The position numbers and the translations under genes were made by a program. DNA of 64,000 nt from positions 286,802-350,801 of the forward strand of contig JAZGFP010000002.1 of NCBI GenBank assembly GCA_036479555.1. The letters run 5' to 3'. Source of the DNA: Sphingorhabdus sp. (lineage in GTDB: Bacteria > Pseudomonadota > Alphaproteobacteria > Sphingomonadales > Sphingomonadaceae). The notes beneath the pieces were generated by a model. It was not told the origin of the DNA. It ran no database searches and saw only the letters and a list, made by a program, of their open reading frames with translations. Of the stretch, positions 828 to 8,206 are shown one piece after another; within the stretch, counting starts at the first letter, position 1, and the number at the start of each line of letters is the position of its first letter.

Positions 828-916
828 GGGAGTTCCTTATGTGAAGAGAATCTTGTTTTTGTTAGTTCCCCGCCTGTTAGCGGATATCGCCGGGAGGAGC
901 AATAAGGGGGAGTGTT

Positions 917-942
917 CGGGGACATGCTGTTGCGTGTCCCCG
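917..942. repeat. Short REP-like hairpin CGGGGACA-N10-TGTCCCCG at left border of AT-rich island
   Basis: 8-bp perfect inverted repeat read directly. Confidence 0.5.
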
Positions 943-1087
943 TGGCGCGGCAGTCAGTTGAATTAAGGGGCAAAGTAAACAGTCACCGCAGTTTCGTAAT
1001 TGCTTAGCAGTTTTCAGTTTATGATACGCGTGAATTGAACTAGGTATCTAGATCATATAAATTGGTCACGTTAGGAGCGAATTTTCC

Positions 1088-1828
1088 ATGTCAACTATCA
1101 GCACAATAGAATGGACGGATGCTACGTGGAATCCAGTAACGGGATGTACAAAAATAAGCCGAGGCTGCGACAATTGCTACGCTGAAACGTTCTCTGAAAG
1201 ATTCAGGGGAGTGGAGGGGCATCACTTCAATTCTGGCTTTGATTTAACACTTCGAGCGGAGCGGCTGGAGCAACCACTTAAATGGAAGTTGCCTAAAATA
1301 ATATTTGTCAATTCGATGAGTGATCTCTTCCACAAGGACATTCCCACTGAGTTTATCGATAGCGTTTTTGATACCATGGAAAAAGCTCACTGGCACATTT
1401 TCCAATTACTGACCAAAAGAAGTTCATTGATGAAGAAATATATTAACAACAGATACGCGAGCAACCCTTGCCCAAATAACATATGGATTGGTGTTTCTGT
1501 TGAAGATTCTCCTGCAAAGAGTAGAATTAAACATCTACAAGATGCCAATATTTCTACGCGGTTTTTATCTATTGAGCCGCTGATTGCAGATGTCGGAGAA
1601 TTACAGTTGAATGATATCAATTGGGTGATTGTCGGAGGTGAAAGTGGAAATCAGGCACGACCCATGAACCCAAAGTGGGCAATCGGTGTAAGAGACCAAT
1701 GTATGGCAAGCGGAGTGGCATTTTTCTTCAAGCAGTGGGGTAGGTTTGGGCAGGATGGTATCGCAAGAAGCAAGAAAGCCAATGGTCGAGAACTATTTGG
1801 TGAAGTTTACGATGGGATGCCAATTTGA
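1088..1828 (+). CDS. DUF5131 (phage Gp37/Gp68-like) protein with radical-SAM-like Cx6Cx2C motif
   Basis: IEWTDATWNPVTGCTKISRGCDNCYA, IFVNSMSDLFH, FQLLTKR, WVIVGGESG, FFFKQWG motifs. Confidence 0.93.
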   Translation: MSTISTIEWTDATWNPVTGCTKISRGCDNCYAETFSERFRGVEGHHFNSGFDLTLRAERLEQPLKWKLPKIIFVNSMSDLFHKDIPTEFIDSVFDTMEKAHWHIFQLLTKRSSLMKKYINNRYASNPCPNNIWIGVSVEDSPAKSRIKHLQDANISTRFLSIEPLIADVGELQLNDINWVIVGGESGNQARPMNPKWAIGVRDQCMASGVAFFFKQWGRFGQDGIARSKKANGRELFGEVYDGMPI

Positions 1829-3081
1829 CAAACCCTCCACCGACGAATTTTCTGTGGGAAGGTGAATTGCCTGAACGAATGATCCACAGTTCAATTAAGC
1901 ATGACCTTATAAGGCAATATATTCGCGACTACATTGCTATACTAACCAATGTTCCAAAACGAAGTAAGCTGCGGCTCACACTGTTTGACGGATTTGCCGG
2001 AGGCGGGGTTTTCTCGGAAAACGGTCTAATTGTTCCTGGAACATCGCTAATTCTCGGAGAAGAGATAATGCGAGCCAAGGCTGAATTTGGAGATGCGCGC
2101 AACATCGAGTTTGATATTGATCTTTGGGCGGTTGAAAGAAATAAGACGAATTATGAGCAGCTAAAGCACACCGTTGAGAATTCCGAATTCTACAACAATT
2201 TTCCGGGCAGAGTTCATCTTAGAAATTGCAGTTATGAAGAAGCGCTCAGAGAATCTATCGAAAGGATGCTAAAGGTACGCAATACCACTGGCCGTTCGAT
2301 TTTTTTGCTCGATCAAACAGGATTTGGACAGGTTGATTTCGATCATGTTAAATCAATTTTTGAGCAACTGAAATCACCTGAAGTTATCATGACAATGTCT
2401 GTAAGTTGGTTGGTCGACATTGCTGGAAACAACCCTACTTTTCTCAAAAAAGTTGCTTCACTTGGTATTGATAAAAACGAACTTCGTGAATTGTTGGAAT
2501 CCAAGCGAAGTCAAGCAAGCCGATATGGCGGTCAGAAGTGGGTCAGAAAATATATCACACAGCATATCGGAGCCGCATACAACACCTGCTTTTTCTTGAA
2601 ATCTCGACCTTCCAATAAGGATATTTGGCTGTTGCATTTCGCTAATAATTGGCGTGCGCGTGATGCGATGATGGAAGTCCATTATAAATTTGCAAATAAA
2701 ACACACTTTTATGGCAAGGCTGGGTTCGAAATGCTTGGATTCGATGTAAATTCTAATGTAGATCAAGTTGAAATGTTTAATTTTACCAAAACAGATGGAG
2801 AAAATTCAAGCATTGCTATGCTTGAGGACATTCCCCGGTCGCTGATAGATCGCGGAGGAGCAAACGGAATTTCATTAGGGGATCTGTTCGACCGTGAGTT
2901 GAACGATGCAACAACCACTCTTCGGCAATTTGAATTGGGCGCTGTTTTGGCAAGGGGTAACAAGGTTTTGGAAATTTTGACAGCTGATGGGAGGACTCGC
3001 CCTCATGCCAAATGGCTCCGCCGCGATGATGTTTTGAGAATACCTGATCAAAAAAGCCTTTGGACAAATTTTGCCCGATAG
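1825..3081 (+). CDS. tcmP: Three-Cys-motif partner protein TcmP family (SAM-dependent methyltransferase-like fold, probable C-terminal winged helix)
   Basis: HSxIKHxLIxxY N-terminus, LFDGFAGGG motif-I-like loop, FLLDQTGF; 4-nt TTGA overlap with DUF5131, its usual partner. Confidence 0.85.
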   Translation: MTNPPPTNFLWEGELPERMIHSSIKHDLIRQYIRDYIAILTNVPKRSKLRLTLFDGFAGGGVFSENGLIVPGTSLILGEEIMRAKAEFGDARNIEFDIDLWAVERNKTNYEQLKHTVENSEFYNNFPGRVHLRNCSYEEALRESIERMLKVRNTTGRSIFLLDQTGFGQVDFDHVKSIFEQLKSPEVIMTMSVSWLVDIAGNNPTFLKKVASLGIDKNELRELLESKRSQASRYGGQKWVRKYITQHIGAAYNTCFFLKSRPSNKDIWLLHFANNWRARDAMMEVHYKFANKTHFYGKAGFEMLGFDVNSNVDQVEMFNFTKTDGENSSIAMLEDIPRSLIDRGGANGISLGDLFDRELNDATTTLRQFELGAVLARGNKVLEILTADGRTRPHAKWLRRDDVLRIPDQKSLWTNFAR

Positions 3082-3763
3082 AAAGAATTCGATAACCCCT
3101 CTGATAAGAAACAGCGCCGACGCTCTGTTAAAAAAATTCGGTGAGGGAAACGCGACTCCCGGTTCAGGCAGTGCCGCCGCCTTTATGGGGTTGCTGTCTT
3201 GTAGTATGATTTTGGCGGTTGTCCGTAAATCAAAAACAAAATCAGTCAAAATATCAGAGAGTCGCCTCGACTTTATCGAAGAGAGAACGATCAAAGCCGA
3301 CTTGAGGCTGAAGGACTTGTTTCAAAAAGATTCAGATGAATTTGAAGAGGTTGTTCGACTACGGCGAGAAAGGGAAGAAGCAAAAAACGAACAGCAAGCA
3401 AGACTACTCCAACGAAGAGCTATCGACCGATTGGAAGAAACCAATAAGATAATATTTGAAATTGCCGAAACATGCTTGGAATTGGTTGATTACGCGACTG
3501 AACTTTTTGAAGTTGGCTGGCCTCACGTGAGAGGCGATTCAGGAGCCGGAATCAGTTCCGCTATTTCGGGTGCCATGTCGTGTATTTTCGTTGCTAACCT
3601 TAATCTAAAAAAATTCGAACGGCGGCTAAGTGCGGCAGGATATGCCGAAAAAATAGAGGGACTAACAAACAAGATATCTGCTTCTCATGATAAAGCACTT
3701 TCTTGCATTTCCCAACTATCTAGCGAAGCCGACGTAAGCCCGACCTTTTTTGACAACCGATGA
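3071..3763 (+). CDS. Cyclodeaminase/cyclohydrolase family (FTCD C-terminal domain-like) protein
   Basis: ATPGSGSAAA (family PGGGSxxA), LFQKDSDEF, GDSGAG...ANLNL; all-helical; TTG start overlaps tcmP stop by 11 nt (start uncertain). Confidence 0.8.
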   Translation: MPDRKNSITPLIRNSADALLKKFGEGNATPGSGSAAAFMGLLSCSMILAVVRKSKTKSVKISESRLDFIEERTIKADLRLKDLFQKDSDEFEEVVRLRREREEAKNEQQARLLQRRAIDRLEETNKIIFEIAETCLELVDYATELFEVGWPHVRGDSGAGISSAISGAMSCIFVANLNLKKFERRLSAAGYAEKIEGLTNKISASHDKALSCISQLSSEADVSPTFFDNR

Positions 3764-4093
3764 TGCGCTTCCCAATATCAGGATTACGGTGACAGGTGCA
3801 ATAACCCCTAAACCCCCGCTGTCCTACACGTCCTCATCCAATCACCCCCCTTGCAATGTAGGATATCGCCTGCAACAATCCTTGTTGACATCGGTAACCC
3901 GCTGACGGGCAGCAGCAGCCTTTCTGCCCGTATCCTCGCCGGAGAGCGCCTCACCGCCAGACGCACGCTCACTGGCCCGCAACATTCTTGCGCTTTCGCA
4001 ATATACCGCAATAGGCGTCACTCCTGTCACCCCGGTGTCTCCTTGGTGTAACCTTCCCTTGCCTTGCCGGGCAGAATTGCGGTGCCAGCTTAC

Positions 4094-4167
4094 CTCGTCT
4101 CCGCTCGAGGCGAACGGGAGAGGTTGCGCGCGCATCATTCATACTTCGCCCTTCGTCAAGCTCAGGG
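4094..4167. repeat. Remnants of two alphaproteobacterial REP families (CTCGTCTCCGCTCGAGGCGAACGG; CCCTTCGTCAAGCTCAGGG)
   Basis: Second motif matches the TTCGACAGGCTCAG arm at 46978-46991; partner arms are missing. Confidence 0.4.
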
Positions 4168-4267
4168 CCCGATGCGCAGGTGGATGATGCGCTCGCCGAG
4201 CAGGGGCTTTGTGCGCGCAGCATCGCGCTTTGTCCTTCGCTCTTTGACCGGCGCATGGCCTCAACCC

Positions 4268-4460
4268 GATTTATCTGTCAGGGTTGGCAGAGGCCAACCG
4301 CGACACCAGCCCGCACCCCCGCCCGAACCACCCATGACATTATACTGAATTGGGTGGTTCGGGCGGGGGTGCGGGCTGGTGCTGCACCAAAAAGGCGCTT
4401 CGAGCGCTTTTGCAAATAGATCGCCGAGGTTGGCCGGGGGCCAATCCTGACAGACAAATC
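4268..4460. repeat. Nested palindromic element: perfect 31-bp inner inverted repeat (4304-4381) inside an imperfect ~32-bp outer inverted repeat
   Basis: Inner arms ACCAGCCCGCACCCCCGCCCGAACCACCCA and exact reverse complement; outer arms 4268-4299 and 4428-4460. Confidence 0.85.
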
Positions 4461-4480
4461 ACCTCGATCTTTACCCGCTG

Positions 4481-4488
4481 TTAACCAT
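4481..4488 (+). promoter_or_regulatory. TTAACCAT motif (CtrA-type half site) upstream of DUF11-like gene
   Basis: Exact 8-mer about 67 nt upstream of ATG 4555; CtrA binding is inference. Confidence 0.4.
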
Positions 4489-4554
4489 CTTTGGGCGATA
4501 GCTGTTGATGCGATCCTTTTATGGTCACGAATAATGATAAGGGAAGCAAGGATT

Positions 4555-5160
4555 ATGACGAAGATTTTTACGCTGAAAACGGCTTATATGGCGGCGCTTA
4601 TGGCTGCTGCGGCATCCGGTTCGCTGGTCGCCATGGCGATTTCAGTAAAGGCGGAGGCGCGCACGGTTTCGGCCGCTGCAGCGCTTTTGCAGGGCGTAAC
4701 GCTTTCTAGCAAGGCGATGGTTGAGCGCGTGGAGAAATCCGCCGATGGCAGCGAGAATGTCGTGCTCAAAAGCCCCAAGGACGTGATTGTCATCCCCGGT
4801 GACAAGGTGATTTTCACGCTGAGCTATACCAATAAAGGTAGCGAAGCTGCGTCGGGATTTCGCGCGACCAACCCGATGCCCGCCCCGATCCGGTTTATCG
4901 AAGCTGCCGAGGGCTGGGCGCTGGTGTCGGTCGATGGCGGCAAGAATTTTGGACAGCTTTCCGATCTGACCGTGATCGAGCGGCACGAAGAAGCTGCGAT
5001 ACTTGACCCCGAAAGCGGCGAGACAGTGCAGAAGGCTTCCTCGGCAGACGTCACCCGCGCGGCTATTGCCCAGGACGTGACCCACGTCCGCTGGGCCTTT
5101 ACCAAACCAATTGCGCCCGGTGAAAAGGGCAGCGTCTCCTATCGCGGGGTGGTGAAGTAA
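4555..5160 (+). CDS. Exported DUF11/conserved-repeat-domain-like beta-sandwich protein
   Basis: Signal-peptide-like N-terminus; PGDKVIFTLSYTNKG...TNPMP, SVDGGKNFG, VTHVRW, VSYRGVVK; start moved to ATG 4555. Confidence 0.7.
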   Translation: MTKIFTLKTAYMAALMAAAASGSLVAMAISVKAEARTVSAAAALLQGVTLSSKAMVERVEKSADGSENVVLKSPKDVIVIPGDKVIFTLSYTNKGSEAASGFRATNPMPAPIRFIEAAEGWALVSVDGGKNFGQLSDLTVIERHEEAAILDPESGETVQKASSADVTRAAIAQDVTHVRWAFTKPIAPGEKGSVSYRGVVK

Positions 5161-5172
5161 GGTTGGGTATTA

Positions 5173-5346
5173 TTTGTCAGAATTTGCTAGCGCAAATCGC
5201 GGCGATTCATTTGTCAGACCCGACCTTCGTCGGACGCGGCACCAGCCCGCTCCCCCACCCGAACCACCCAATCAGTATAATGTCACGGGTGGTTCGGGTG
5301 GTGGAGAGGGCCGGTGCCGCGATTTGCGAAAGCAAATTCTGACAAA
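5173..5346. repeat. Second nested palindromic element (inner 5241-5315; outer 31-bp inverted repeat 5173-5203 / 5316-5346)
   Basis: Same inner family as 4304-4381 in inverted orientation (loops are near reverse complements); outer arms differ at 2 of 31 positions. Confidence 0.85.
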
Positions 5347-5466
5347 CAAAAAAACCCTGCCGCGATTTGAGAAAGTGAATTCACGTAAACAACCCCCCAC
5401 GCGCACCCATTTTGTTAACGCTTCATGCCGCAGCCTGTCCCGCGCTGACACAGGCGGAGCGGCGTT

Positions 5467-5502
5467 ATGGTTAACGGCCGGGAAATTCAGCGCGTTAACC
5501 AT
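5467..5502. promoter_or_regulatory. Inverted pair ATGGTTAACG-N16-CGTTAACCAT upstream of lipoprotein gene
   Basis: 10-bp perfect inverted repeat containing TTAACCAT on both strands. Confidence 0.5.
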
Positions 5503-5571
5503 TTTTTGGGCTAGATTTGCGGATTGGTTTCAGACAGCTTGGTCATCAACAAGTGAATTGGAGCATCGATC

Positions 5572-6384
5572 ATGCACAGCATCACCAAGACCTTATTGAC
5601 GGCAGCCGCCGCGCTTACGCTTCCGTTCGGCCTTGCCGCATGCAGCAGCGAACCCGACAATAGCGAAGCGGTTGCCCAGCTCGACAAGAAGCTGGCTGGC
5701 AGGGACGCGGACCCCGCGATGAATAGCGCGCTTAATGACCGCATCCTCGTCGATCCCGATCTTACCGATAGCGCGAATGTTACCGCAGTAAAGCCTGCCG
5801 ATGCTCCGCTTAATGGACAAACACCGCCGGACAATGGCTACCGAGGCGATACACCGGGCAAGGGCCGGGGCAATGGCAAGCGCGCGATCGTTTCTGCCGA
5901 AGAGCTTAACAATGCAAAACTGATGCGCGCGCCGAAGCCTACAGTGGTCGCGGCGCAAGATTGCAAAAGCTGCGGCAGCAAGCGCGCAACCACTTTGGGC
6001 GGACTGGCCAATGATCAAGGAATGCAGCGCGGTAAAGGTACCTGCGATGCGAAGCTACGATATGGCGCCAAATGGGCGACCCGTATGCCGACCGAATTTC
6101 CGGTCTATCCAAAGGGCCGCGTAAAGGAAGCCGCCGGTATAGATGGCGGCAAATGCGATATCCGCGTGGCCAGCTTTACCACCAGCGCAAAAATGCAGAA
6201 TGTCGTCGATTATTATTATACCCGCGCAAAACGTTCGGGCTATTCGGCGGAATATCAATTGCGTGCCGGCGAGCATGCGTTGGGCGGCGTGCGCAAAAAT
6301 GATGGCGGTGCCTTTTTTATCACATTCAACCGGCATCCGGGCGGGGGCACGACCGTCGATATAGTGGCCAATAACGGCCGCTAA
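5572..6384 (+). CDS. Hypothetical lipoprotein
   Basis: LAAC lipobox at residue 24; Cys-containing C-terminal domain; 270 aa with coding-like composition. Confidence 0.8.
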   Translation: MHSITKTLLTAAAALTLPFGLAACSSEPDNSEAVAQLDKKLAGRDADPAMNSALNDRILVDPDLTDSANVTAVKPADAPLNGQTPPDNGYRGDTPGKGRGNGKRAIVSAEELNNAKLMRAPKPTVVAAQDCKSCGSKRATTLGGLANDQGMQRGKGTCDAKLRYGAKWATRMPTEFPVYPKGRVKEAAGIDGGKCDIRVASFTTSAKMQNVVDYYYTRAKRSGYSAEYQLRAGEHALGGVRKNDGGAFFITFNRHPGGGTTVDIVANNGR

Positions 6385-6448
6385 ACCGCGTAAATTACAA
6401 GTAAGCACGACTATGACTAAGCAAGTACTACACAAGGGGAATACGACC

Positions 6449-7006
6449 ATGAAGAAACTGATTGCAACCGCGCTGTTTGGCGCAACAATGCTGACGGCAG
6501 CTACATCTGCCTCTGCTACCACATATATCTACAAACAGAATAACGGCGCGGTATTGACGCTTGATACAGCCAACAACCGTGGCACGCTGATCGGGCGCGA
6601 CATTAATGTCAGCTTTACCAGCAGCGATCTTGCCAATTTCACCGGCGGCGCGAAGCCGAGCGGTTCATTCACGCTCGATAACCTTGATGGATACCGCAAG
6701 ATCCGCGGTCGCCGCTATTATGACAATCCGTCGCATACGCAAAAGCTGATCATCTCAGACAATGGCCGCACCAACCTGTGGTCTCACTGGGGTACGACCC
6801 CGCGCTATGGCGACTATATCACTTATGTGCGCAAATATTATCCGCCCACAACCGGAAGTTCGGGCGGATCCACGAGCACCGGCGGCAGCACGGGCGGCGG
6901 ATCAACCGGCGGCACTGATGTTCCGGCACCCGGCATGCTCGCACTCTTCGGCCTTGGCGCAGGCGCACTAGCCTTCCGCCGCCGCCGGAACAAGAAAAAC
7001 GCATAA
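6449..7006 (+). CDS. PEP-CTERM (VPAP variant) sorting-domain surface protein
   Basis: Signal peptide MKKLIATALFG..., Gly/Ser/Thr linker, C-terminal VPAPGMLALFGLGAGALAFRRRR. Confidence 0.9.
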   Translation: MKKLIATALFGATMLTAATSASATTYIYKQNNGAVLTLDTANNRGTLIGRDINVSFTSSDLANFTGGAKPSGSFTLDNLDGYRKIRGRRYYDNPSHTQKLIISDNGRTNLWSHWGTTPRYGDYITYVRKYYPPTTGSSGGSTSTGGSTGGGSTGGTDVPAPGMLALFGLGAGALAFRRRRNKKNA

Positions 7007-7078
7007 GCCAGAAGTTTGACGGCCCTTCGAGGACCAGTATGTTTCGTTGGGGCCTTTACCGAAAGCCCCAAATAACTG

Positions 7079-7120
7079 AGCGCAGGAGACCAGCAATGGT
7101 TTCCTGCGCTTTTGTTTTTT
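7079..7120 (+). terminator. Rho-independent terminator after PEP-CTERM gene
   Basis: AGCGCAGGAGACC-agcaat-GGTTTCCTGCGCT followed by TTTGTTTTTT. Confidence 0.8.
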
Positions 7121-7229
7121 GTGAGGCGGAGAGGGTTTTCGGGCAGCGATATACCGACAGGTGTTTTTGGGTGTGATTGTCACTGAAGCTAAGAACGATT
7201 GCTGGGAAATGGCGCGCCATGCTCCAAAA

Positions 7230-7502
7230 TCAAACCTCCACACCCCGCACTAAAATCCGGTAGTCCTGCATCGGGATGCATAGCTGCGCTTCACTACCTT
7301 CGCCGCTTCTACCTCCCTCGCGGGCATAGTGGGCGTCGATCATGCGGCGTAGGCGGCCCATCTGGACGCGGGGGTAGCTGTCCAGTTGAGGATCGAAGTC
7401 GCAGGGCTTTCCAAGTGCTTCAACCGCGATTGTGTAGGATTTCAAGTGAAAGGGGCTGCCTGACATGCGGTGATCGACGGAGGTAATTTTTCCGGGTTTC
7501 AT
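7230..7502 (-). CDS. Cassette 1 gene E: stand-alone 90-aa homologue of the N-terminal (putative winged-helix) domain of the 17342-19045 receptor
   Basis: KSYTIAVEALGKPCDFDPQLDSYPRVQMGRLRRM is 23/34 identical to the receptor segment; ATG overlaps the JAB stop (ATGA). Confidence 0.7.
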   Translation of the reverse strand: MKPGKITSVDHRMSGSPFHLKSYTIAVEALGKPCDFDPQLDSYPRVQMGRLRRMIDAHYAREGGRSGEGSEAQLCIPMQDYRILVRGVEV

Positions 7503-8206
7503 AACGTTGCTCCTTTCTCTTGGCTGCGTGCAAACAGGCCCTCGCAACTGCGGCGCAGGCTGTTGCTGCCCCCACGTCCGACAATGATGTGATCGAGCAG
7601 CGCTATACCCATCAGGCTTGCAGCCGCGGCGATTTCTCTAGTCAGCCTCAAGTCTTCGTGGCTCGGCTGTGTGTCGCCTGATGGATGATTGTGGACCAGG
7701 ATCAGCGCGGAAGCATTTTCAGCGAGCGCATGGCGGATGATTTCGCGCGGATGGGCCTGCACCTTGTCAACGGTGCCCCGCCACAGCGTGTGATCGGCTA
7801 GGAGGTGGTTGGCGCTATCGAGGAAAAATACGCGGAATGTTTCAATCTCTAGGCCCGCCATATCAAGCTGCAGATAGGGGAATAGATCGTCAGGTGCGGC
7901 GATAACGTTGCCACCGGCGAGGCGATGCTGAGTGCCCGAGATAATGGTGTTGACCAAATATCGCAAGCGCGCGCCAATGCGCTGCGATGTGCCAAGGTTT
8001 TCGCCGCCGGTCGTTAACACTTTGGCAAATATGTGATCGAGCGAACCATGGCGCGCGATCATTTGCCGACTGGTGGACAATGCGCCGGCGCCGGCCGGGC
8101 CGGCAAGAAGGTCTGTGAGGACGGCTAGGTCGGTGTCTCGGCCTTGCTGCGCTGCACATGCCGATATGTCGCGATCAGCAGCATCAGCATCTGCGGATAA
8201 GACCAT
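7499..8206 (-). CDS. Cassette 1 gene D: RadC-like JAB/MPN-domain protein
   Basis: IETFRVFFLD, HPREII, LILVHNHPSGDTQPSHED, LDHIIVG; start inferred at ATG 8206. Confidence 0.88.
   Translation of the reverse strand: MVLSADADAADRDISACAAQQGRDTDLAVLTDLLAGPAGAGALSTSRQMIARHGSLDHIFAKVLTTGGENLGTSQRIGARLRYLVNTIISGTQHRLAGGNVIAAPDDLFPYLQLDMAGLEIETFRVFFLDSANHLLADHTLWRGTVDKVQAHPREIIRHALAENASALILVHNHPSGDTQPSHEDLRLTREIAAAASLMGIALLDHIIVGRGGSNSLRRSCEGLFARSQEKGATL

What the first reader, a model, noticed from the sequence alone, without database searches (positions are those of the whole stretch)
1088..3763. DUF5131-TcmP-cyclodeaminase-like operon: candidate nucleic-acid modification or anti-phage system
Seen: three translationally coupled genes (4-nt and 11-nt overlaps) encode a Cx6Cx2C Fe-S/radical-SAM-like protein, a methyltransferase-fold protein (FDGFAGGG) and an FTCD-C-like protein. 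Established: DUF5131 and TcmP are recurrent partners, often in mobile or phage-like contexts, with no function known to me. Inference: radical-SAM-like plus methyltransferase chemistry suggests a novel base or nucleotide modification, and the compact AT-rich insertion in a housekeeping locus resembles a defence island.
Basis: partly seen in the sequence, partly recalled or inferred. Interest (0 to 1): 0.75.

Follow-up and report, generated by a model that had tools for sequence, protein, structure and literature searches.

The report
Mobile DUF5131-TcmP cassette with folate-like accessory
A 2.8-kb foreign insert next to the aconitase gene carries a rare three-gene version of a widespread but unstudied enzyme pair (a radical-SAM-type enzyme and a methyltransferase-shaped DNA-binding partner), and its third gene belongs to a folate-enzyme-like family that turns out to ride along with many different bacterial anti-phage systems.

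Summary
Three intact, overlapping genes (1088-1828, 1825-3081, 3071-3763) encode DUF5131, TcmP and an FTCD_C/FchA-like protein. They lie in a 43% GC insert within a 56-58% GC chromosome.

The DUF5131-TcmP pair is already catalogued as the untested PADLOC defence candidates PDC-M30/M41, so the pair itself is not new.

**New here:**
- In the TcmP clade closest to the window (at least 51% identity), four further distinct loci (plus one cut contig) keep the same three-gene order. One sister lineage has only the pair. The linked third genes form one clade (100/99 support).
- The wider third-gene subfamily is absent from 50,697 phage records and from 40 relatives.
- Its members sit beside unrelated defence systems: short pAgo/TIR-APAZ, Lamassu, PD-T7-5, type I R-M and several PDC candidates.
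- About half of its diversity is fused to an ImmA/IrrE (M78) zinc protease, and a few members are fused to DHFR.

**Structure:** the models show DUF5131 closest to spore photoproduct lyase. TcmP has a SAM-methyltransferase fold plus a winged helix.

**Best reading:** a horizontally moving, DNA-directed radical-SAM/methyltransferase-fold complex with a folate-type ligand-binding accessory, working in phage conflict or the DNA-damage response. The chemistry is unknown.

**Verdict:** new variant of a known kind, with moderate to high interest.

The parts
960..3790 (.). Low-GC (about 43%) foreign insert between acnA and the next core gene. The boundaries are approximate. No flanking direct repeats and no recombinase were found.
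   Evidence: Composition profile. GC of cassette against flanks. Empty site of about 700 nt in G013 and G002. Repeat scan.
1020..1087 (+). Putative promoter and ribosome-binding site of the operon. TATAAAT lies about 25 nt and AGGAG about 13 nt before the ATG. There is no LexA box here.
   Evidence: Sequence. Comparison with the upstream region of L065 and the LexA-box scan. This part is an inference, not a mapped promoter.
1088..1828 (+). DUF5131 (Gp37/Gp68 family): a small, non-canonical radical-SAM-type enzyme with Cx6Cx2C (C20, C27, C30), Y31 and GGESG at 183-187.
   Evidence: Pfam E 1e-98. PADLOC PDC-M30B/M41B E about 1e-102. Invariant columns. AF2 pLDDT 92. Best PDB fold match is spore photoproduct lyase.
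1825..3081 (+). TcmP: class-I SAM-methyltransferase fold with motif I DGFAGGG (55-61) and a motif-IV-like DQTGF (163-167), plus a C-terminal winged-helix-like domain (about residues 320-405).
   Evidence: TIGR04474 at 139.7 bits. PADLOC PDC-M30A 9e-21. Alignment invariants. AF2 pTM 0.82. Foldseek matches to SAM methyltransferases, including Trm1 and the RlmJ-family entry 2oo3. A homologue hits PF22560 GMT-wHTH.
3071..3763 (+). Stand-alone FTCD_C/FchA-like protein ('P3'). It keeps PGSGSAAA (30-37), D87/F91, GDSG (155-158) and N178. It is translationally coupled to tcmP.
   Evidence: PF04961 5e-22. Family profile against PDB 7vg4 FchA, 4e-28. Below the FchA equivalog cut-off, 48 against 275 bits. 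Invariants. Clade analysis.

Best explanation
This is a horizontally acquired, self-contained three-gene operon. It is a rare subtype of the widespread DUF5131-TcmP module (PADLOC candidates PDC-M30/M41).

**Shown:**
- DUF5131 is a small radical-SAM-type enzyme whose nearest solved fold is the DNA-repair enzyme spore photoproduct lyase.
- TcmP is a SAM-methyltransferase-fold protein with a winged-helix tail.
- The two occur fused in nature, so they work as one complex.
- The third protein is a stand-alone member of an FchA/FTCD_C-like subfamily. It was captured once into this operon and has been inherited with it since.

**Inferred mechanism:**
- TcmP docks on DNA through its winged helix. It presents a flipped base, or a second SAM, in a Rossmann pocket whose DQTG[F/Y] loop sits where amino-methyltransferases carry DPPY/DPFG.
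- DUF5131 cleaves SAM on its [4Fe-4S] cluster and performs radical chemistry on that DNA site.
- The third protein binds a reduced folate (of the methenyl- or formyl-THF type). It most likely acts as a plug-in ligand-sensing or modulating accessory, not as a dedicated cofactor supplier. The reason is that its relatives attach equally tightly to unrelated immune systems, and half of them are fused to an ImmA/IrrE signalling protease.

**Biological role:** a conflict or stress module (phage defence candidate, DNA-damage linked) that modifies or processes DNA.
For: **Family and catalogue hits:**

**DUF5131 and TcmP work together:**
- Natural DUF5131-TcmP fusions of 638-680 aa, in the same order as here.
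- The 4-nt overlap between the two genes is conserved in L065, L069, L070 and L075.

**DUF5131 is radical-SAM-like:**
- Invariant C20/C27/C30 and GGESG.
- The DUF5131 model (pLDDT 92) matches spore photoproduct lyase best, at TMq 0.47-0.51.
- RadicalSAM.org places DUF5131 in megacluster 5-2, beside SPL in 5-3 (PMC9477430).

**TcmP is a DNA-binding methyltransferase-fold protein:**
- The model has a methyltransferase fold, with Trm1, an RlmJ-family entry and Trm5a among the matches.
- A wHTH Pfam hit in a homologue.

**The three-gene unit is conserved:**
- It occurs in four further distinct loci beside different host genes (acnA, lepA, RusA gene, ParE toxin-antitoxin pair). One further cut contig holds a TcmP 3' fragment directly followed by P3.
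- The operon-linked P3 proteins form one clade, 100/99.
- The matching TcmP clade sits on a long stem, 100/100.

**The cassette is foreign:** it is 13-17 GC points below the host flank in every host.

**The P3 subfamily is a defence-island resident:**
- Neighbours include short pAgo plus TIR-APAZ, LmuB, a type I S subunit, PDC-M65, PD-T7-5, PDC-S42 and PDC-M19.
- 74 of the best 150 cluster representatives carry a C-terminal M78 domain, 69 of them with HExxH.
- DHFR fusions tie the domain to folates.
- There is no P3 in 50,697 phage records.
- DUF5131 or TcmP lies within 7 kb in 7 of the 49 P3 loci, which come from several P3 clades. It is also 2.4 kb upstream of P3 on the only plasmid hit. The base rate of DUF5131 is 34 of 301 genomes.
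Against: - Nothing biochemical or phenotypic is known for any of the three families.
- PDC-M30/M41 are predictions only.
- The fold matches are weak. SPL matches at E 6e-3 and TM about 0.5. The TcmP matches are generic methyltransferase hits at E about 1e-5.
- The window has no other defence gene beside the cassette.
- A target in RNA or a small molecule is not excluded.
- A stand-alone P3 has no DNA-binding or protease domain, so how it would regulate anything is unknown.
- P3 keeps the residues conserved across FchA and FTCD, so it may simply be an active enzyme.
- Perfect LexA boxes in relatives fit a repair role as well as a defence role.
- Phage copies of DUF5131 lack TcmP, so the pair is not universal.
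Confidence: 0.5

Rival explanations
1. The third protein is a working cyclohydrolase or cyclodeaminase. It feeds, or removes, a one-carbon unit (5,10-methenyl- or 10-formyl-THF) for the DUF5131-TcmP reaction. The operon would then be a folate-dependent radical C1 modification of a nucleobase, comparable in logic to class D radical-SAM methylases that take their carbon from methylene-tetrahydrofolate.
For: - P3 is tightly translationally coupled and inherited with the pair.
- P3 keeps the positions conserved in FchA and FTCD: the PG(G/S)G(G/S)AA loop, D87/F91, D156 and N178.
- DHFR-FTCD_C fusions next to thyA show that this subfamily deals with folates.
- P3 is repeatedly found near DUF5131/TcmP in several P3 clades.
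- The class D precedent is from my own knowledge of the radical-SAM literature. RadicalSAM.org lists the class.
Against: - Thousands of DUF5131-TcmP pairs work without any P3. DUF5131 has more than 8000 hits, while the P3-linked TcmP clade has about 17 clusters.
- The same P3 subfamily is coupled just as tightly to short pAgo/TIR-APAZ operons and to other systems with no conceivable folate chemistry.
- Half the subfamily is fused to a protease.
- P3 scores far below the FchA equivalog cut-off.
Confidence: 0.2
2. The module is a DNA-repair device rather than an immune system. It would be an SOS-inducible, spore-photoproduct-lyase-like radical enzyme, guided by TcmP, that reverses or processes a particular DNA lesion, and it is carried by mobile elements and phages for their own benefit.
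For: - The best structural match is spore photoproduct lyase.
- A perfect alphaproteobacterial LexA box (GTTC-N7-GTTC) lies 21 nt upstream of DUF5131 in L070/L072 and 10 nt upstream in L074. A one-mismatch box is present in L003.
- Phage copies of DUF5131 lie in replication and recombination regions, beside RecT, RuvC and DNA methylases.
- P3 relatives lie near uvrA in five sphingomonads and are fused to ImmA/IrrE-type proteases. Characterised members of that protease family answer to DNA damage (the last point is established knowledge of ImmA, IrrE and CapP).
Against: - There is no LexA box in the window or in its closest relative L065.
- The distribution is sporadic (11% of genomes), the cassette is low in GC, and TcmP diverges fast. 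This looks like conflict genes, not repair genes.
- The pair was catalogued because it is embedded in BREX, DISARM and R-M loci.
- SOS control is also common for prophage and defence genes.
Confidence: 0.2
3. The third gene is functionally independent of the pair. It would be a one-gene defence or stress module that merely shares a transcript with DUF5131-TcmP because both accumulate in the same islands.
For: - Most P3 relatives lie behind unrelated genes, often with a gap of about 100 nt that could hold their own promoter.
- The sister lineage L073/L074 has the pair without P3 and without any P3 remnant.
Against: - Overlapping or near-abutting stop and start codons are kept in four further distinct loci, and the trees of P3 and TcmP agree.
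- DUF5131/TcmP is the commonest recognisable neighbour of P3 across several P3 clades.
Confidence: 0.1

Closest known systems
PADLOC phage-defence candidates PDC-M30 / PDC-M41 (TcmP + DUF5131; Payne et al., bioRxiv 10.1101/2024.01.29.577857)
   Same: The same two protein families in the same adjacent, overlapping arrangement. DUF5131 matches PDC-M30B/M41B at E about 1e-102, and TcmP matches PDC-M30A at 9e-21.
   Different: The catalogue entries have two genes. This locus has a third, co-inherited FTCD_C-like gene that matches no PADLOC model. Its TcmP is a long-branch clade that the PADLOC model matches only weakly. The main text names no experimental test of PDC-M30/M41.
Spore photoproduct lyase (radical-SAM DNA repair enzyme; PDB 4fhg, 4k9r)
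   Same: It is the best structural match of the DUF5131 model. Both have a partial TIM barrel, a three-Cys cluster site near the N-terminus followed by a Tyr, and a GGE-type SAM motif. Both belong to RadicalSAM.org megacluster 5.
   Different: The Cys spacing is Cx6Cx2C, not CX3CX2C. DUF5131 has 246 aa against 340. The TM-score is only about 0.5 at about 10% identity. SPL works alone, whereas DUF5131 needs TcmP. No lesion substrate is known.
Methenyltetrahydrofolate cyclohydrolase FchA (PDB 7vg4) and the cyclodeaminase domain of FTCD (PDB 1tt9)
   Same: Clear sequence homology over the whole domain (profile E 4e-28 and 2e-12). The Gly-rich loop, D..F, D156 and N178 positions are conserved.
   Different: It scores 48 bits against the FchA equivalog cut-off of 275. 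The family's 'LPK' stretch is replaced by R..R(D/N). It is never next to C1 or histidine-utilisation genes in the loci examined. Instead it lies in defence or mobile contexts, or is fused to an M78 protease.
CapP / ImmA / IrrE-type sensor proteases that regulate defence operons and mobile elements
   Same: Half of the P3 subfamily carries an M78 (ImmA/IrrE) zinc-protease domain with HExxH. As with the CapH/CapP regulators, the family is found beside many unrelated defence systems.
   Different: The window's protein has no protease domain. No partner repressor was seen. In the fusions, the sensor-like domain is FTCD_C-like and N-terminal, not the C-terminal GAF-like domain of IrrE (that last comparison is from my own knowledge).
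Amino-methyltransferases of nucleic acids with a (D/N)PP(Y/F) or DPFG loop (Trm1, RlmJ family)
   Same: TcmP shares the fold. An invariant D163-Q-T-G-F/Y loop follows the fourth strand, at the place of their catalytic loop. Trm1 (3axs) and an RlmJ-family entry (2oo3, TMt 0.49) are among the best matches.
   Different: The loop sequence differs. An extra hairpin and helix follow motif I. No methyl transfer has been shown. TcmP always pairs with a radical-SAM-type enzyme.

Membership tests
DUF5131 (PF07505, Gp37/Gp68) | Match to the Pfam model above its gathering score, over the full length | tested here: met
   329.9 bits against 28.9, covering positions 2-243 of 243.
DUF5131 (PF07505, Gp37/Gp68) | Three-Cys motif Cx6Cx2C near the N-terminus | tested here: met
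   C20, C27 and C30 are invariant in 30 sequences.
TcmP (NCBIfam TIGR04474) | Score above the curated cut-off | tested here: met
   139.7 bits against 53.
TcmP (NCBIfam TIGR04474) | Encoded next to a three-Cys PF07505 protein | tested here: met
   A 4-nt overlap with the DUF5131 gene. Natural fusions exist.
PADLOC PDC-M30 / PDC-M41 | Both component models hit adjacent genes | tested here: met
   The B component matches at E about 1e-102 and the A component at 9e-21 (M30A) and 8e-11 (M41A). PADLOC's own system rules and thresholds were not run.
PADLOC PDC-M30 / PDC-M41 | Anti-phage activity | not testable with these tools
   These are candidates by genetic embedding only. The main text names no test of them. 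The only other evidence is a weak strain correlation in P. aeruginosa.
Radical SAM superfamily | Canonical CX3CX2C cluster motif | tested here: not met
   The motif here is Cx6Cx2C. SFLD/RadicalSAM.org nevertheless lists DUF5131 as a subgroup.
Radical SAM superfamily | Partial TIM-barrel fold with a GGE-type SAM-binding motif | tested here: met
   The best fold matches are SPL, the EpeE radical-SAM epimerase and TIM barrels. GGESG at 183-187 is invariant.
Radical SAM superfamily | [4Fe-4S]-dependent reductive cleavage of SAM | not testable with these tools
   This needs anaerobic biochemistry.
FchA methenyl-THF cyclohydrolase (NF045657) | Score above the equivalog cut-off | tested here: not met
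   48.2 bits against 275. It is a member of the FTCD_C superfamily only.
FchA methenyl-THF cyclohydrolase (NF045657) | Context of C1 or histidine-utilisation genes | tested here: not met
   No such genes lie beside it in the window. None appeared among the families recovered from the neighbours scanned in the related loci, except the thyA-DHFR fusion locus L041.
Spore photoproduct lyase | Sequence membership and SPL-specific length and catalytic residues | tested here: not met
   There is no PDB sequence match. The resemblance is in fold only, at about 10% identity.
SOS (LexA) regulon member | LexA operator GTTC-N7-GTTC in the promoter | tested here: not met
   None lies within 250 nt of the start in the window. 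The nearest one-mismatch site is 209 nt upstream, beside acnA. Perfect boxes are present in relatives L070/L072 and L074.
Restriction-modification system | A DNA methyltransferase with a DPPY or PCQ catalytic motif and a partner nuclease | tested here: not met
   There is only a marginal MTase_II hit at 6.6e-4. The loop is DQTGF. The cassette contains no nuclease gene.

The most novel reading that the evidence does not exclude
The stand-alone and M78-fused FTCD_C-like subfamily is a previously unrecognised folate-pool sensor of bacterial immunity. It would detect the disturbance of one-carbon and thymidylate metabolism caused by phage takeover, or by thymine or antifolate stress. It would then gate very different effectors: in this locus a DNA-directed radical-SAM/methyltransferase-fold complex, elsewhere short pAgo/TIR-APAZ, Lamassu-type and other systems, or its own fused protease.
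Probability: 0.2. Interest if true: 0.85.

Novelty: new variant of a known kind. Interest (0 to 1): 0.6.

Why it matters
DUF5131-TcmP is among the commonest enzyme pairs in mobile DNA that still has no known function. It occurs in about 11% of genomes in this phylum, and in phages and archaea.

This three-gene subtype offers an extra experimental handle. It carries a small, soluble, probably folate-binding partner whose ligand can be identified by simple binding assays. That ligand could reveal what switches the radical enzyme on or what it consumes.

Separately, a folate-enzyme-like domain recurs beside many immune systems and is fused to an ImmA/IrrE protease in half of its diversity. No paper found in the searchable library describes this. 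It would link one-carbon metabolism to phage defence or DNA-damage signalling.

Tried and rejected
- **LexA/SOS control of this copy:** rejected. There is no box in the window or in L065, although relatives have perfect boxes.
- **Riboswitch (THF, SAM) or other RNA element in front of the operon:** none found. The only Rfam matches are hairpin artefacts on REP-like palindromes at 4302-4385 and 5236-5320.
- **tRNA gene, integrase, or flanking direct repeats as an insertion signature:** none found.
- **Sequence search of TcmP and DUF5131 against PDB:** nothing meaningful.
- **BFVD fold search with TcmP:** only generic methyltransferases.
- **A single conserved operon partner for the third gene:** rejected. 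Clustering of 692 neighbouring ORFs gave no shared partner apart from DUF5131/TcmP and lineage-specific synteny.
- **Phage origin of the third gene:** rejected. There are 0 hits in 50,697 phage records.
- **The HTH gene upstream of DUF5131 in Gordonia phage as a TcmP:** rejected.
- **The third gene as ordinary FchA:** rejected on score and context.
- **A decayed third gene in the two-gene sister lineage:** none found.
- **Literature on DUF5131, TcmP, PDC-M30/M41, and cyclodeaminase in phage defence:** nothing functional.
Full report
**1. Observation**

- The first junction is TTGA, so the TTG start overlaps the TGA stop.
- The second junction is an 11-nt overlap ending in TAG.
- The Cx6Cx2C motif (CTKISRGCDNC) and the FDGFAGGG motif are both present.

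The family matches are far beyond chance:
- PF07505 DUF5131, E 1e-98.
- TIGR04474 TcmP, 139.7 bits against a cut-off of 53.
- PF04961 FTCD_C, 78.9 bits against 24.5.

The cassette is 43% GC. The adjacent acnA fragment is 58% GC and the whole window is 55.6%.

**2. It is a foreign insert at a variable spot**

- Of 24 same-genus genomes, only one has any TcmP. That copy is a 26%-identical version elsewhere in the genome.
- None of 40 relatives has the third gene.
- In two same-genus genomes, the acnA start and the next shared gene (the homologue of 4534-5160) are about 700 nt apart and enclose a 61-aa gene. In the window they are 3.7 kb apart and that small gene is missing.
- I found no tRNA gene, recombinase or flanking direct repeat. 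The boundaries (about 960-3790) therefore rest on composition alone.
- The closest relative of the cassette is on metagenomic contigs L065/L066. It sits at the same place beside acnA but is followed by a Fic gene. A more distant two-gene relative, L073, is also near acnA. So this is a recurrent landing site.
- Between the window and L065, acnA is 80.8% identical in DNA but the cassette only 72.9%.
- In every host examined, the cassette is 13-17 GC points below its flanks.

**3. The pair is known as a catalogue entry, not as a function**

- DUF5131 matches PADLOC models PDC-M30B and PDC-M41B at E about 1e-102. TcmP matches PDC-M30A at 9e-21.
- These 'phage defence candidates' were predicted because they are embedded in BREX, DISARM, type I R-M and Hma loci. 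The nine systems that paper tested were Hma-embedded candidates; the added PDC candidates, of which M30 and M41 are two, are presented as predictions (also PMC10855318).
- The searchable literature holds nothing functional on DUF5131 or TcmP. It offers only annotations and the RadicalSAM.org placement of DUF5131 in megacluster 5-2, next to spore photoproduct lyase in 5-3.

**4. What the two proteins look like**

*DUF5131.*
- It is extremely conserved. There were more than 8000 hits, and the best 120 listed are 63-75% identical.
- Invariant residues are C20, C27, C30, Y31 and a GGESG motif.
- Its AlphaFold model (pLDDT 92) matches spore photoproduct lyase best (E 6e-3, TMq 0.47-0.51). Next come TIM barrels and the radical-SAM epimerase EpeE.

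*TcmP.*
- It diverges much faster, at about 30% identity for most homologues.
- Its model (pLDDT 79.6, pTM 0.82) has a class-I SAM-methyltransferase core and a C-terminal helical/winged-helix part.
- A homologue hits the Pfam GMT-wHTH domain.
- Foldseek returns generic SAM methyltransferases at E about 1e-5. These include Trm1, an RlmJ-family protein (2oo3, TMt 0.49) and Trm5a.
- Invariant residues are DGFAGGG (motif I) and D163-Q-T-G followed by F/Y, directly after the fourth strand. That is where amino-methyltransferases carry DPPY or DPFG. This positional reading is my inference.

*The two together.*
- Natural DUF5131-TcmP fusion proteins of 638-680 aa exist, in the same order as the genes here.
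- The 4-nt overlap is conserved in all close relatives.
- So the two act as one complex. This rests on gene fusion and gene order only.

**5. The third gene is a real, co-inherited component of this subtype**

I looked up the contigs for the TcmP clade closest to the window (51-86% identity). The results were:
- DUF5131-TcmP-FTCD_C occurs in L065/L066 (beside acnA), L069 (the same as L003, Allosphingosinicella, beside a ParE toxin-antitoxin pair), L070-L072 (beside lepA) and L075/L076 (beside a RusA gene).
- L067 holds a TcmP 3' fragment directly followed by P3 at the end of a cut contig.
- Only the sister lineage L073/L074 has the pair alone, with no remnant of the third gene.
- In a tree of 55 FTCD_C-like proteins, the seven operon-linked ones form a single clade (100/99) nested inside the wider subfamily.
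- The corresponding TcmP proteins form a clade on a very long stem (100/100), with the two-gene L073 as sister.
- The third gene was therefore captured once and has travelled with the pair since.

**6. What the third gene's family is**

- A profile of 42 homologues matches the solved methenyl-THF cyclohydrolase FchA (7vg4, E 4e-28) and the cyclodeaminase domain of FTCD (E 2e-12).
- It keeps the Gly-rich loop (PGSGSAAA here), D87/F91, D156 and N178.
- The window protein scores 48 bits against the FchA equivalog cut-off of 275. It is therefore a relative, not FchA.

Genomic context of the subfamily:
- In the 49 loci found in one-genome-per-species contigs, the neighbours are not folate genes. 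The one exception is L041, a DHFR-FTCD_C fusion next to thyA.
- Recognisable neighbours include:
  - Short pAgo with TIR-APAZ partners, in three loci, 16-28 nt apart or overlapping.
  - Lamassu LmuB.
  - A type I specificity subunit.
  - PDC-M65A/B, PDC-S42, PDC-M19 and PD-T7-5.
  - GHKL ATPases with a restriction-enzyme N-terminal domain.
  - A 1621-aa helicase-nuclease.
  - Integrases, resolvases and a Mu-type transposase.
- At least 14 of the 49 loci have a named defence or candidate-defence gene within about 2 kb.
- DUF5131 and/or TcmP lies within 7 kb in seven loci drawn from several P3 clades.
- It also lies 2.4 kb upstream of P3 on the only plasmid that carries a homologue.
- With DUF5131 present in 34 of 301 genomes of the phylum, a crude expectation is about 0.02 such loci. 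This is my own arithmetic, not a formal test.
- The subfamily is absent from 50,697 phage records and matches no PADLOC model.

Domain architectures of the subfamily:
- In a library of 1.84 billion cluster representatives, the profile finds 240 proteins at E up to 1e-30.
- Of the best 150, 74 carry a C-terminal ImmA/IrrE-type M78 domain (69 with HExxH), 69 are stand-alone, and a few are DHFR fusions.

**7. Mechanism**

*Shown:*
- The folds and motifs described above.
- The fusions.
- The co-inheritance of the three genes.
- The foreignness of the cassette.
- The defence-island ecology of the third family.

*Inferred:*
- TcmP binds DNA and SAM and positions a target.
- DUF5131 performs SAM-derived radical chemistry on that target.
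- The third protein binds a reduced folate.

I favour a sensing or modulating role for the third protein over a cofactor-supplying role, for three reasons:
- The same subfamily is attached just as tightly to immune systems that need no folate chemistry.
- Half of the subfamily is fused to a signalling-type protease.
- The great majority of DUF5131-TcmP pairs manage without it.

The cofactor reading, a folate-dependent radical C1 transfer, remains a serious rival.

**8. Defence or repair?**

Points toward a DNA-damage link:
- A perfect alphaproteobacterial LexA box lies 21 nt upstream of DUF5131 in L070/L072 and 10 nt upstream in L074. There is a one-mismatch box in L003.
- A perfect box in a 250-nt stretch is expected at well under 1% by chance.
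- This reproduces leads from earlier notes of this scan.
- The window and its closest relative have no box.
- DUF5131 is also present in 176 phage records, mostly actinophages. It lies among replication, recombination and DNA-methylase genes and has no TcmP there.
- Together with the resemblance to spore photoproduct lyase, this keeps a repair or DNA-processing role alive.

Points toward conflict:
- The distribution is sporadic.
- The cassette is low in GC.
- TcmP diverges fast.
- The pair is embedded in R-M-type loci.

The two roles are not mutually exclusive.

**9. Other checks**

- No riboswitch or other RNA family lies in or beside the operon.
- No PDB sequence relative exists for TcmP or DUF5131.
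- The viral fold library gave only generic methyltransferases.

**10. Verdict**

The pair itself is already catalogued.

The three-gene subtype is a new variant of a known kind. So is the picture of the FTCD_C-like subfamily as a plug-in companion of diverse defence systems, half of it fused to an ImmA/IrrE protease. Neither was found in the searchable literature. Interest is 0.6.

Noticed in passing
window 4268-4460 and 5170-5350: Two copies of a GC-rich REP/MITE-like palindromic element flank the 208-aa gene at 4534-5160. One has 31-nt perfect arms at 4304-4334 and 4351-4381. They produce spurious Rfam microRNA matches.
   Followed up: partly
L021, L030 (Aliiglaciecola sp. M165) and L048 (Methylobacillus): The FTCD_C-like gene is tightly joined to short pAgo plus TIR-APAZ (SPARTA-like) operons, either as the last gene (16-nt gap or overlap) or as the first gene (28-nt gap). 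One genome carries two such operons.
   Followed up: partly
L039, L042, L045, L046, L047, and 74 of the best 150 representatives: Proteins of about 465 aa fuse the FTCD_C-like domain to a C-terminal ImmA/IrrE (M78) zinc protease with HExxH. They lie beside transposases, resolvases, a type I S subunit and a 1621-aa helicase-nuclease. This architecture accounts for about half of the subfamily's diversity.
   Followed up: partly
L041 (Sphingomonadales MAG) 5448-7645; also P0304, P0330: A thyA gene is followed by a DHFR-FTCD_C fusion protein of about 393 aa. This metabolic-looking branch of the same subfamily ties the domain to folates.
   Followed up: no
L013, L017, L024, L035, L036 (five sphingomonad genera): A clade of the FTCD_C-like gene lies near a convergently oriented uvrA in all five loci. 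In L013, L024 and L036 a divergently oriented homologous gene lies on its other side, which is a P63C-domain gene in L013. It is either an island next to uvrA or a vertically kept gene.
   Followed up: no
L070/L072 (about 21 nt) and L074 (about 10 nt) upstream of the DUF5131 start: Perfect alphaproteobacterial LexA boxes are present: GTTCATAATTTGTTC and GTTCGCTATTCGTTC. L003 has a one-mismatch box. The window copy has none.
   Followed up: yes
window 828-4533 compared with L061 (G013) and L063 (G002): The acnA-proximal intergenic site is variable. Relatives hold a 61-aa gene there that is missing from the window. L065 has the cassette plus a Fic gene and a 58-aa gene. L073 has a DUF433 gene plus the two-gene pair.
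   Followed up: partly
P0070, P0073, P0080, P0109 and others: Natural single-polypeptide DUF5131-TcmP fusions of 638-680 aa are present in metagenomes.
   Followed up: partly
L080, L081 (Mycobacterium prophage prophi58-1, Gordonia phage Confidence): Phage DUF5131 genes lie in early, replication and recombination regions beside DNA methyltransferases, RecT, RepA and RuvC. They lack a TcmP partner. One is annotated 'RNA methyltransferase'.
   Followed up: partly
L079 (Burkholderia sp. FERM BP-3421 plasmid p2) 508-8717: An integrase is followed by two TcmP genes flanking a Gp37/Gp68 gene, then two H-NS genes, two hypothetical genes and the FTCD_C-like gene, all within about 8 kb. This is the only plasmid in PLSDB with a homologue of the third gene.
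   Followed up: no
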